Shown one piece after another: positions 49,703 to 51,030 of a stretch of 64,000 nt of DNA. Both the position numbers and the translations under genes were made by a program. Source of the DNA: Arcobacter sp. (GTDB taxonomy: Bacteria > Campylobacterota > Campylobacteria > Campylobacterales > Arcobacteraceae); the NCBI GenBank assembly GCA_003252105.1, contig QKDL01000085.1:1106-65105 (forward strand), in the 5' to 3' direction. The notes below the pieces were generated by a model. That model did not search any database. It was not told the DNA's origin and saw only the letters and a program-made list of their open reading frames with translations. Position 1 is the first letter of the stretch, and each line of letters opens with the position of its first letter.

Positions 49703-50062
49703 TTATTTTGCTATTAACCTTCTCATCCAAAGTGGAGGATTATCCTGCATTTGGATTAGAGCGTTTAATACATCCTCTATTTTTTCATTTTCTTTGCTAG
49801 CTTGCATTGGAAATATCTTACAAGACTTAACCATCATAGATGCTTTTGGTCCTATTTGTTGAACATATAAGATATCAGCATCTTCAATACACTCTATTTT
49901 ATATGTTAATTTATCAATCTCATCTTCAATCTCAATTGAAGAATCAACTGATTTTACAAATTTGTAAGAATCACCTGTTATCTCATAGATATAAAACTCT
50001 TTGCACCAACCAAAGTGTTGATTAACATGAATATTATCTTGAGATGCAAATGCAATTTTCAT
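49703..50062 (-). CDS. NifX/NifY-family protein
   Basis: IAFAS..VNQHFG, IGPKA, PPLW. Confidence 0.8.
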   Translation of the reverse strand: MKIAFASQDNIHVNQHFGWCKEFYIYEITGDSYKFVKSVDSSIEIEDEIDKLTYKIECIEDADILYVQQIGPKASMMVKSCKIFPMQASKENEKIEDVLNALIQMQDNPPLWMRRLIAK

Positions 50063-51030
50063 AGTATAAATATCCTAACTTTTGGATCAATAACTTTTTG
50101 CATAGTGTCTGCAATCATAGAATAAGTTCCTGTTGATGCAATCGAACATCCTACACATGCACCTTGATATGCAAGTCTTATCTCTATTTCTGGCTGATCC
50201 ATATAATCAATTAAAACAACATTTCCACCATCTTTTACTAAAATTGGTCTGATAAATCTATCTAATGTGTCATTTATGATTTCTAATTGTTTTTCTCTTG
50301 TTTGAGCTCTAAAGTGGTCATTTAGTTCACAGTCACTTGGTAACTCTTTATCCATACCTGTAAGTTGAATATTTGCCATGGCATGACCATTTTGAGCAGC
50401 TTTTAACATACAGTCAAATCCCTCTTTTACACCTTCTAAATTTTGTCTATCTTGTAAAAGTATAAGTGCAAGCCTAAAGGCTGCTTGTGTATGGTTTTTT
50501 CTAACTGCTCGTCTAAAATAATCTTTTGCTTTTTCTAAATCCTCTTCAACACCTATTTTTGTTTGATACATAAGTGCTAAATTGAAGTTTGCAGAATCAT
50601 TATCATAATCACTTGCTTTTTCAAACCAGCTTTTAGCTTGAGCATAATCTTTTTCTACACCTTCACCTTTTAGGTACATAAGTCCTAAGTTTGCCATAGC
50701 TTGGTCATTTTTAAGTTTAGCTTCCTCTTGCCAAATATTTAATGCTGTATCAAAATCTTTACTTTTGTATGCTGCAAGTGCCTCTCTATGTTTCATAAAT
50801 CTAACTCCTTCACCTGGATTTGGTAGTTGCCTACCTGCTTTTAATTCTCTTTTCATATGCTCATATAAATATTCATGAGCCAACTCTATCGCTTCATCTA
50901 AATCTTCACTGGCTGCTTTTACTTCAAAATCCAAAAACTCTACTAAAAAAGCATCTCCCACTTCATGTTCACCACTGTACCACTCAAATGGGTATTTTAA
51001 TGATTTATAATATTCTAAATCTTTTTCCAT
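50059..51030 (-). CDS. HicB-like + SEL1 repeats + NifU-C fusion protein
   Basis: N-terminal EDLDEAIELA..GRQLPNP; AMANLGLMY..G.GVEKDY SEL1 repeats; IRPILVKDGG..GACVGC. Confidence 0.75.
   Translation of the reverse strand: MEKDLEYYKSLKYPFEWYSGEHEVGDAFLVEFLDFEVKAASEDLDEAIELAHEYLYEHMKRELKAGRQLPNPGEGVRFMKHREALAAYKSKDFDTALNIWQEEAKLKNDQAMANLGLMYLKGEGVEKDYAQAKSWFEKASDYDNDSANFNLALMYQTKIGVEEDLEKAKDYFRRAVRKNHTQAAFRLALILLQDRQNLEGVKEGFDCMLKAAQNGHAMANIQLTGMDKELPSDCELNDHFRAQTREKQLEIINDTLDRFIRPILVKDGGNVVLIDYMDQPEIEIRLAYQGACVGCSIASTGTYSMIADTMQKVIDPKVRIFIL

What the first reader, a model, noticed from the sequence alone, without database searches (positions are those of the whole stretch)
50059..51030. Three-domain HicB-like/SEL1/NifU-C fusion in a sigma54 nif operon
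Seen: ~75-aa N-terminus with a HicB antitoxin-like pattern, about three to four SEL1 repeats, and a C-terminal NifU/NfuA-type domain with GACVGC. It is co-transcribed with a ferredoxin, two NifX-family genes and fprA; no hicA partner is nearby. Known: Nfu domains carry 4Fe-4S clusters via CxxC; SEL1 repeats scaffold proteins; HicB binds HicA RNases. Inferred: an Fe-S carrier or adaptor with a co-opted antitoxin fold, or an Fe-S/redox-gated regulator of an RNase. I do not recognise this architecture.
Basis: partly seen in the sequence, partly recalled or inferred. Interest (0 to 1): 0.7.

Follow-up and report, generated by a model that had tools for sequence, protein, structure and literature searches.

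The report
Nif-specific SEL1–Nfu iron-sulfur carrier
This gene encodes an uncharacterised helper protein found only in nitrogen-fixing Campylobacterota: an iron-sulfur-cluster carrier domain (Nfu) joined to a protein-docking repeat array and a small optional antitoxin-like module, most likely delivering Fe-S clusters to the nitrogenase assembly line rather than acting as a toxin-antitoxin component.

Summary
ORF 50059-51030 (-) encodes a 323-aa, three-module protein. Residues 1-78 are an acidic alpha-beta3-alpha domain, probably a remote HicB N-domain relative. Residues 79-232 are SEL1 repeats. Residues 233-323 are an Nfu domain with invariant C292-x-x-C295. The gene sits in a tightly packed operon, nifX-like/fdx/target/nifX/fprA, behind a sigma54-type -24/-12 site and divergent from nifE.

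The family is restricted to Campylobacterales and tracks nitrogenase. Within the family sample, 52 of 53 carriers have nifH. Across the phylum sample, 28 of 28 carriers have nifH and none of 350 nifH-negative genomes has the protein. It is not universal: 23 of 51 nifH-positive genomes lack the full form.

The architecture is modular. Forms of about 245, 208 and 152 aa lack the N-domain or most repeats but always keep Nfu-CxxC. The N-domain state changes at least 4-6 times on the tree.

The antitoxin/RNase-regulator reading is not supported. There is no DNA-binding tail. The genome's only HicA is on another contig beside its own HicB. The module is dispensable and strongly acidic.

Best reading: a nif-dedicated Nfu-type [4Fe-4S] carrier with variable targeting modules, analogous to NfuA. 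It is a new variant of a known kind, annotated "NifU family protein" but unstudied. Function is inferred, not shown.

The parts
51849..51863 (-). sigma54-type -24/-12 promoter element GGAAT-N5-TTGCA, 38 nt upstream of the first gene of the operon
   Evidence: Pattern GGMAY-N5-TTGCW: 8 sites in the window against 0.83 expected, with 0 of 100 shuffles reaching 8. The other copies precede nifE, nifN, nifV and the second nifX. Sequence read. rpoN lies at 62946-63998.
51425..51811 (-). NifX-like protein (128 aa, Nitro_FeMo-Co domain, Cys-rich C-terminal tail); first gene of the operon
   Evidence: Pfam PF02579 E=1.1e-9. Conserved immediately upstream of the target, or of fdx plus target, in about 50 loci.
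51032..51412 (-). 2x[4Fe-4S] ferredoxin (126 aa, YfhL-like); optional member of the operon
   Evidence: Pfam Fer4 families and NCBIfam YfhL E=7e-12. Present in Halarcobacter and Marinarcus, absent in Arcobacter g18, Aliarcobacter and Sulfurimonas loci that still keep the N-domain.
50797..51030 (-). Target aa 1-78: acidic alpha-beta-beta-beta-alpha domain, HicB-N-like, accessory module
   Evidence: AF2 pLDDT 89. Best TM-scores are to HicB N-domains 6g26, 6g1n and 6g1c, and to TTHA0281 (TMq 0.62-0.68, E>=0.3). The profile's top three PDB sequence hits are all HicB (E 0.009-0.07). 10 of 14 members touch PF15919. Net charge -10. Missing in 17 of the family loci fetched.
50335..50796 (-). Target aa 79-232: SEL1-repeat solenoid (three clear repeats plus degenerate caps); starts at invariant M79, which is the start codon of the short forms; contains invariant Cys207
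   Evidence: Pfam Sel1 E=1.7e-18. Foldseek hits LceB 8sxq (E=4.5e-8), HcpC 1ouv, SEL1L and COA7. Translation. Alignment A1.
50062..50334 (-). Target aa 233-323: Nfu (NifU C-terminal) domain; invariant core of the family
   Evidence: PF01106 E=2.6e-13. phmmer hits AtNFU2 2z51 (E=4.3e-5), 1veh, 2m5o and 1xhj with the CxxC in register. Retained in the 245-, 208- and 152-aa forms.
50146..50157 (-). CVGC: the Nfu CxxC cluster-ligand motif (C292, C295)
   Evidence: Translation. Both cysteines are invariant in 25 of 25 aligned members and are conserved in the divergent members P0123 and P0127 and in the 152-aa form.
49703..50062 (-). NifX (119 aa); its ATG overlaps the target's stop codon (ATGA)
   Evidence: TIGR02663 E=1.2e-28. 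Junction sequence. The target's end abuts or overlaps the nifX start in most loci.
48460..49701 (-). FprA-type flavodiiron protein (413 aa); last gene of the tightly spaced run
   Evidence: ODP/metallo-beta-lactamase plus flavodoxin domains. NF008887 E=2.5e-81, below that family's cutoff.

Best explanation
The protein is a nitrogen-fixation-dedicated Nfu-type iron-sulfur cluster carrier. By analogy with characterised Nfu proteins, its C-terminal Nfu domain would hold a labile [4Fe-4S] cluster between the CxxC pairs of two subunits and pass it to apo-proteins. The central SEL1 solenoid would act as a docking platform that brings the Nfu domain to one or more clients of the nitrogenase cofactor-assembly line. 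The best candidates are the products of the flanking and coupled genes, NifX and NifX-like, together with NifB, NifEN and the ferredoxin. The acidic HicB-N-like module would be an extra, lineage-optional protein-binding or oligomerisation module, not an antitoxin. The logic is the same as in NfuA, where a non-catalytic targeting domain is fused to an Nfu domain, but the targeting parts here are different. Shown: domain composition, conservation of the ligands, nif linkage, sigma54-type promoter motif, modularity. Inferred: cluster binding, transfer, identity of the client, role of the N-domain.
For: The Nfu domain scores above the Pfam cutoff. C292 and C295 are invariant. The domain aligns in register with solved Nfu domains.
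The SEL1 array is confirmed by Pfam, a confident AF2 model and Foldseek.
The family is strictly nif-linked. Family sample: 52 of 53 carriers are nifH-positive, Fisher p=6e-37. Phylum sample: 28 of 28 carriers are nifH-positive and 0 of 350 nifH-negative genomes carry it, p=2e-29.
The gene always lies inside the nif accessory cluster, between nifX-like and nifX and next to fprA, nifB and nifEN, in about 60 loci from Arcobacteraceae, Sulfurimonadaceae, Sulfurovaceae and Sulfurospirillaceae.
The target's stop overlaps the nifX start as ATGA.
A sigma54-type site lies upstream, and the motif is enriched before the nif operons.
It is an extra Nfu protein. A complete Arcobacter genome has a 341-aa NifU and a 92-aa Nfu elsewhere, in addition to this one.
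In the reduction series 323/245/208/152 aa, the Nfu-CxxC is the only part always kept.
There is no signal peptide or hydrophobic N-terminus, read directly from the sequence, so the protein is cytoplasmic like its presumed clients.
Against: No biochemical or genetic data exist for any member.
23 of 51 nifH-positive Campylobacterota lack the full-length form. All 12 sampled genomes of genus g45 have no nif-linked Nfu at all, so the protein is not essential for nitrogenase maturation in general.
The client is unknown. Gene adjacency and overlap are only suggestive.
The CxxC loop is the one low-confidence segment of the model (aa 294-298). That is expected for an apo prediction but gives no structural support for cluster binding.
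The own genome shows no NifU-proper hit. This is probably because the MAG is 92% complete, so 'extra Nfu' rests on relatives.
Confidence: 0.62

Rival explanations
1. Oxygen- or stress-protection and repair factor rather than a biosynthetic carrier. Working with the co-encoded flavodiiron protein FprA, the protein re-inserts or stabilises Fe-S clusters of nitrogenase components damaged by O2, or holds them in a protected complex through the SEL1 solenoid.
For: fprA is part of the same tightly spaced operon in nearly all loci. Peroxiredoxin-like genes lie in the cluster. From established knowledge, E. coli and A. vinelandii NfuA matter chiefly under oxidative stress or iron limitation. The protein is dispensable in some diazotroph lineages, which would fit a conditional role.
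Against: This differs from the main explanation only in timing, repair versus first insertion, and nothing in the sequence discriminates between them. The flanking NifX-family genes point to cofactor trafficking rather than protection.
Confidence: 0.17
2. Fe-S- or redox-sensing regulatory adaptor. Cluster occupancy of the Nfu domain changes what the SEL1 and N-domain surfaces bind, for example a NifA-type activator or sigma54 machinery, and so tunes nif expression.
For: Several bacterial SEL1 proteins are regulators. ExoR and MotX-like models give weak hits. rpoN lies in the same cluster. There is an invariant extra Cys207 in the SEL1 part.
Against: There is no DNA-binding or signalling domain. 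The gene is embedded among assembly genes, not next to regulators. The 152-aa forms keep only the Nfu domain, which would leave a sensor with no output. The weak regulator hits are generic SEL1 similarity, far below their cutoffs.
Confidence: 0.07
3. HicB-type antitoxin or Fe-S-gated regulator of a HicA-like RNase.
For: The N-domain's nearest structural and profile matches are HicB N-domains. A JGI annotation mentions the HicB family.
Against: There is no hicA in the cluster or in about 60 related loci. The genome's single HicA has its own adjacent canonical HicB on another contig. There is no RHH/HTH domain. The N-domain has been lost at least 4-6 times with the rest retained, and no stand-alone copy appears. 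The Pfam score is half the cutoff. hhalign against the genome's own HicB finds nothing.
Confidence: 0.03

Closest known systems
NfuA (E. coli / Azotobacter vinelandii Fe-S carrier; TIGR03341)
   Same: Two-part logic: a non-catalytic client-targeting domain fused N-terminally to a C-terminal Nfu domain with CxxC that carries a [4Fe-4S] cluster. Cytoplasmic. An accessory rather than a core scaffold.
   Different: The targeting part of NfuA is a degenerate A-type carrier domain. Here it is a SEL1 solenoid plus a HicB-N-like domain. The TIGR03341 score is 20.5 bits against a cutoff of 269. This family is nif-operon-specific and restricted to Campylobacterales.
NifU proper (TIGR02000), C-terminal domain
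   Same: Homologous Nfu domain with CxxC. Functionally tied to nitrogenase maturation in A. vinelandii.
   Different: It lacks the IscU-like N-domain and the central [2Fe-2S] domain. The TIGR02000 score is 29.5 bits against a cutoff of 273. Relatives also encode a separate full NifU elsewhere in the genome.
Bacterial and eukaryotic SEL1-repeat (SLR) proteins: LceB, LpnE, HcpC, SEL1L, COA7
   Same: The same alpha-alpha repeat solenoid. Foldseek E=4.5e-8 to 6e-5, RMSD about 2 Å over 125-147 columns. General role as protein-protein interaction scaffolds.
   Different: Most bacterial SLR proteins are secreted or periplasmic and disulfide-rich. This one has no signal peptide, a single conserved Cys, and is fused to an Fe-S carrier domain.
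HicB antitoxin N-terminal domain / UPF0150 (TTHA0281) fold
   Same: A three-stranded sheet packed by a long helix, followed by an xPxP turn. It gives the best TM-scores (0.62-0.68) and the top three profile hits.
   Different: All statistics are marginal: Foldseek E>=0.3, hmmsearch E>=0.009, Pfam 13.9 bits against 27. It has an extra N-terminal helix, and no fourth strand is predicted. There is no DNA-binding C-domain and no HicA partner. It is strongly acidic and dispensable.

Membership tests
Nfu / NifU C-terminal domain (PF01106) | Profile score above the curated cutoff | tested here: met
   50.3 bits against a cutoff of 27, aa 252-320, covering profile positions 1-66 of 67.
Nfu / NifU C-terminal domain (PF01106) | Conserved CxxC cluster-ligand motif | tested here: met
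   C292 and C295 are invariant in 25 of 25 members. CVGC at 50146-50157. In register with QGACGSC of AtNFU2.
Nfu / NifU C-terminal domain (PF01106) | Binds and transfers a [4Fe-4S] cluster | not testable with these tools
   Needs anaerobic reconstitution with spectroscopy, and transfer assays.
SEL1 repeat proteins (PF08238) | Repeat profile above the cutoff, and an alpha-alpha solenoid fold | tested here: met
   66.8 bits against 30.7. AF2 shows 9 helices over aa 78-222 at pLDDT above 90. Foldseek hits SLR structures at E down to 4.5e-8.
HicB antitoxin (PF15919 / PF15970 / PF05534) | N-domain profile score above the curated cutoff | tested here: not met
   13.9 bits against a cutoff of 27, E=0.064. 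The best family member reaches E=8.9e-4, and 10 of 14 members give sub-threshold hits.
HicB antitoxin (PF15919 / PF15970 / PF05534) | HicB N-domain fold | tested here: inconclusive
   TMq 0.62-0.68 and RMSD 1.7 Å over 60 columns to 6g26, 6g1n, 6g1c and 2dsy, but Foldseek E>=0.28. dsRBDs score almost as well by E-value.
HicB antitoxin (PF15919 / PF15970 / PF05534) | C-terminal RHH or HTH DNA-binding domain | tested here: not met
   The residues after the N-domain are SEL1 repeats and an Nfu domain.
HicB antitoxin (PF15919 / PF15970 / PF05534) | Adjacent hicA toxin gene | tested here: not met
   The only PF07927 hit in the genome is on contig C61, next to its own 114-aa HicB. There is none among the cluster's small ORFs or in related loci.
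NfuA (TIGR03341) | Degenerate A-type carrier N-domain plus Nfu domain; equivalog score | tested here: not met
   20.5 bits against a cutoff of 269. Only the Nfu part aligns, aa 250-312.
NifU proper (TIGR02000) | IscU-like N-domain, central [2Fe-2S] domain and Nfu C-domain | tested here: not met
   29.5 bits against a cutoff of 273.3. Only profile positions 211-286 align.

The most novel reading that the evidence does not exclude
The acidic HicB-N-like module is an antitoxin-type binding domain genuinely co-opted into metallocluster biogenesis. It would clamp a specific basic partner of the nif assembly line, such as a NifX-family carrier, NifB or a ferredoxin, or it would gate the Nfu site, so that Fe-S delivery is partner-controlled. 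That would be a first case of a toxin-antitoxin fold recruited for nitrogenase maturation. The whole protein would define a Campylobacterales-specific route for feeding [4Fe-4S] units into NifB-co/FeMo-co synthesis.
Probability: 0.2. Interest if true: 0.6.

Novelty: new variant of a known kind. Interest (0 to 1): 0.45.

Why it matters
How [4Fe-4S] building blocks reach NifB, NifEN and NifH is well studied only in Azotobacter and Klebsiella, where NifU and NifS do the job. Campylobacterota use NifU/NifS as housekeeping machinery, and here they are seen to add a separate, nif-operon-encoded Nfu carrier with its own docking modules. If the carrier function and its client were established, two things would follow. 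It would reveal a lineage-specific solution for targeting Fe-S delivery to the nitrogenase assembly line. It would also add a compact accessory candidate for efforts to transplant nitrogenase maturation into other hosts. The natural truncation series (323/245/208/152 aa) is a ready-made dissection of which module does what. The finding also shows that a HicB-like hit in a non-TA context should not be read as an antitoxin.

Tried and rejected
1. I considered that the N-domain is functionally tied to the upstream ferredoxin, because both are missing in genus g14. Rejected: Arcobacter g18, Aliarcobacter, Sulfurimonas and Sulfurovum keep the N-domain without an adjacent fdx.
2. I considered that the N-domain is encoded as a separate small gene in the short-form loci. 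Rejected: an HMM scan of all frames of 35 aa or more in those loci found none.
3. P0121 and P0122 (90 and 86 aa) looked like possible stand-alone N-domain proteins. Rejected: their ends diverge like frameshifted or truncated fragments.
4. I considered a dsRBD / RNA-binding reading of the alpha-beta3-alpha fold, since the top Foldseek E-value is a dsRBD. Judged unlikely: net charge is -10 and pI about 4.4 across the family, TM-scores are lower than for HicB, and the profile hits are to HicB rather than dsRBDs.
5. The fold search on the full model returned only SEL1 structures, so a separate N-domain model was needed.
6. hhalign of the N-domain profile against the genome's own HicB gave probability 0.2. 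This is a negative result, kept as evidence that any HicB relationship is remote.
7. The deep phmmer search with the N-domain over 1.84 billion representatives gave only 10 hits, all from this family or fragments. It therefore gave no independent family assignment.
8. I looked for transcriptome evidence of co-transcription.
9. Literature searches for the fusion found nothing relevant.
10. The own genome shows no NifU-proper hit. I did not interpret this, because the MAG is 92% complete.
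Full report
**1. The observation**

The ORF at 50059-51030 on the minus strand is real: 323 aa with an ATG start.
- Pfam finds Sel1 repeats at E=1.7e-18 (66.8 bits, cutoff 30.7).
- Pfam finds the NifU C-terminal (Nfu) domain at E=2.6e-13 (50.3 bits, cutoff 27) over aa 252-320.
- The GACVGC motif is present, and CVGC translates from 50146-50157.

An AlphaFold2 model built from 25 family members is confident, with pLDDT 89.1 and pTM 0.76. It divides the protein into three parts:
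- aa 1-64: helix, three strands, long helix.
- aa 78-222: nine helices, which are three clear SEL1 repeats plus degenerate caps.
- aa 245-322: an alpha/beta Nfu domain.

The only low-confidence stretch is the CxxC loop, as expected for an apo model.

**2. Is the N-terminus HicB-like?**

By sequence alone the case is weak. PF15919 (HicB_lk_antitox) scores E=0.064 and 13.9 bits against a cutoff of 27. A phmmer search with aa 1-95 over 1.84 billion representative proteins found only 10 hits. All of them were this family or fragments of it.

Several independent weak signals nevertheless agree:
- 10 of 14 diverse family members touch PF15919 (best E=8.9e-4), and one touches PF15970 HicB-like_2.
- A profile of the N-domains searched against all PDB sequences returns HicB antitoxins as its top three hits: 6hpb E=0.0093, 6u0i E=0.0098 and 5yrz E=0.07. 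The alignment runs through strands 2-3, the helix and a shared xPxP turn.
- A separate AF2 model of aa 1-78 (pLDDT 89.1) gives its best TM-scores to HicB N-domains and relatives. These are 6g26 (TMq 0.63, RMSD 1.7 Å over 60 columns), 6g1n (0.68), 6g1c (0.66), TTHA0281 2dsy (0.67) and Swol_0700 3k6q (0.59).
- JGI's automated annotation of a divergent member reads 'NfuA/predicted RNase H-like HicB family nuclease'.

Against this:
- No Foldseek hit is significant (all E>=0.28).
- dsRBDs, which share the alpha-beta3-alpha topology, score similarly by E-value, though with lower TM (0.45-0.58).
- hhalign against the genome's own canonical HicB finds nothing.

My reading is that the N-terminus is probably a remote relative of the HicB N-domain/UPF0150 fold, but it does not meet the family's own threshold.

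The domain is strongly acidic. Net charge is -10 here and -7 to -15 across the family, with pI about 4.4. That argues against nucleic-acid binding.

**3. Context**

The gene is the third of five tightly spaced minus-strand genes:

| Gene | Coordinates | Spacing to the next gene |
|---|---|---|
| nifX-like | 51425-51811 | 12 nt gap |
| 2x[4Fe-4S] ferredoxin | 51032-51412 | 1 nt gap |
| target | 50059-51030 | 4 nt overlap (ATGA) |
| nifX | 49703-50062 | 1 nt gap |
| fprA | 48460-49701 | - |

The site GGAATAGTTTTTGCA lies 38 nt upstream of the first gene, at 51849-51863 on the minus strand. The pattern GGMAY-N5-TTGCW occurs 8 times in the window against 0.83 expected, and 0 of 100 shuffles reach 8. 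Other copies sit in front of nifE, nifN, nifV and a second nifX. rpoN itself is at 62946-63998.

The surrounding region is a nif accessory cluster. It contains nifQ, nifV, nifB, nifE, nifN, a second nifX, a NifX-associated protein, flavodoxin and nifZ. nifH lies on another contig of this 92%-complete MAG.

Co-transcription is inferred from spacing and the lack of predicted terminators.

**4. Distribution**

The family is annotated 'NifU family protein' in Halarcobacter, Arcobacter, Aliarcobacter and Marinarcus. A scan of one genome per prokaryotic species found family members only in Campylobacterota, adding Sulfurimonas, Sulfurovum and Sulfurospirillum. Matches outside the phylum were generic SEL1 proteins. 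That scan used SEL1-region patterns, so an independently evolved SEL1-Nfu fusion elsewhere would not have been found. A divergent branch, about 30% identical and from Sulfurimonas/Thiomicrolovo, has the same architecture.

Co-occurrence with nifH:

| Sample | Genomes | Carry the protein | Carriers with nifH | nifH-positive total | Fisher p |
|---|---|---|---|---|---|
| Same family | 151 | 53 | 52 | 54 | 6e-37 |
| Phylum | 401 | 28 | 28 | 51 | 2e-29 |

- In the family sample, the three discordant genomes are assemblies of 260-350 contigs.
- In the phylum sample, 'carry the protein' means a match spanning both the SEL1 and Nfu domains. None of the 350 nifH-negative genomes has such a match.
- These p-values ignore phylogenetic non-independence.
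- The protein is not universal. 23 of the 51 nifH-positive genomes in the phylum sample lack the full form.
- In genus g45 (12 genomes), the only Nfu-domain proteins are a housekeeping NifU of about 330 aa and an Nfu of about 100 aa, both more than 1 Mb from nifH.
- A complete Arcobacter genome has those two proteins plus this one. The protein is therefore an additional, nif-dedicated Nfu.

**5. Synteny and modularity**

In about 60 loci the order is nifN-nifE, divergent from nifX-like, [fdx], target, nifX, fprA, then nifB, orf93 and nifV. In most loci the target's end abuts or overlaps the nifX start.

The architecture is modular:
- 17 loci encode forms of about 245-257 aa that begin at the equivalent of invariant M79 and lack the N-domain.
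- No stand-alone N-domain ORF is present in those loci.
- Genus g2 has a 208-aa form with fewer repeats.
- A Sulfurimonas genome that scored 'negative' has a 152-aa form in the same context. It keeps only the last helical repeat plus an Nfu domain with CSGC.

On a maximum-likelihood tree of the SEL1-Nfu core, the N-domain state needs at least 4-6 changes. Short forms nest inside full-length clades, and the most divergent member still has the N-domain. Where the N-domain is present, it is about as conserved as the other two domains.

So the Nfu-CxxC is the invariant core. The solenoid and the HicB-like module are accessory parts.

**6. Mechanism**

The best explanation is a nif-dedicated Nfu-type [4Fe-4S] carrier. 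Its SEL1 solenoid docks it to one or more clients of the nitrogenase assembly line. Its acidic N-domain is an optional extra binding or oligomerisation module. This mirrors NfuA in logic, a targeting domain plus an Nfu domain, but not in ancestry of the targeting part.

Shown here: domains, ligand conservation, nif linkage, promoter motif, modularity. Inferred: cluster binding and transfer, the client, and the N-domain's role.

Rivals:
- A repair or protection role with FprA. This differs mainly in timing and cannot be separated from the main reading by sequence.
- An Fe-S-sensing regulator. It has no output domain, and the 152-aa forms argue against it.
- A HicB-type antitoxin or RNase regulator. 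The genome's only HicA sits on contig C61 beside its own 114-aa HicB. No HicA-like ORF is in the cluster. There is no DNA-binding tail, and the module is dispensable.

**7. Comparison and novelty**

The protein fails the equivalog models for NfuA (20.5 bits against 269) and NifU proper (29.5 bits against 273). It also fails three of four defining features of HicB. It is a bona fide Nfu-domain and SEL1-repeat protein.

No paper in the searchable library describes the fusion. Two earlier first-stage notes of this scan had seen the sigma54 sites and the same fusion in another genome. I used them only as leads.

I classify the protein as a new variant of a known kind, namely Nfu carriers with a targeting module. 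It is of moderate interest: a lineage-specific, unstudied nif accessory with a natural truncation series that invites experiments.

Noticed in passing
window 53294-55583 (between nifE 51947-53290 and nifN 55702-56997): nifE and nifN are separated by a split Abi_2 (abortive-infection-like) gene and an AI-2E family transporter. The Abi_2 gene is in two overlapping ORFs that carry the N- and C-halves of the Pfam model. nifN has its own sigma54-type site at 55657-55671. The nifE-nifN gap varies from 0 to about 3.5 kb among related loci, so this looks like an insertion hot spot.
   Followed up: partly
window 48142-48372 (+): A 76-aa ORF lies antisense between fprA and nifB. It is conserved at this position in most Arcobacteraceae loci and has no family assignment.
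   Followed up: partly
window 46317-46598 (-): A 93-aa ORF between nifB and nifV is conserved in many related loci and has no Pfam or NCBIfam hit.
   Followed up: no
window 42868-43860 (-), 57880-58338 (+), 58322-59578 (+): Other protein-interaction or unusual genes sit inside the nif cluster: a 330-aa leucine-rich-repeat protein, a 152-aa ankyrin-repeat protein and a SagB-type dehydrogenase-like protein.
   Followed up: no
window 51425-51811 (-): The NifX-like first gene of the operon ends in a Cys-rich tail (…TSCACECNDN). The g14 orthologue has a similar tail (…SSCTCGCSNK). This could be an extra metal or cluster site.
   Followed up: no
window 50410-50412 (-), Cys207 of the target: There is an invariant cysteine in the third, degenerate SEL1 repeat. 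It is the only conserved Cys outside the CxxC. Its distance to the Nfu site could not be measured because no coordinates were available.
   Followed up: no
L010 / L032 (Arcobacter sp. BM504): The orthologue carries an in-frame TAA that splits it into 96-aa and 229-aa frames. This is either a pseudogene or a sequencing error.
   Followed up: no
window 3827-3841 (-), 9909-9923 (+), 25299-25313 (-): Three further matches to the sigma54-type motif GGMAY-N5-TTGCW lie outside the nif region. Their downstream genes were not examined.
   Followed up: no
window 43862-44324 (-): An 80-aa Cys-rich ORF (weak MSL2-CXC-like hit, E=3e-4) and a 69-aa Rop-like protein (PF05082) lie downstream of a GNAT-like gene, which in turn follows nifV.
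   Followed up: no
L111 (G385:C1) 3860-4318 (-): A 152-aa minimal family member, with the last helical repeat plus Nfu and CSGC, lies in a Sulfurimonas nif cluster and is followed by fdx, nifX and fdx. Presence/absence counts at E<=1e-15 therefore underestimate the family.
   Followed up: yes
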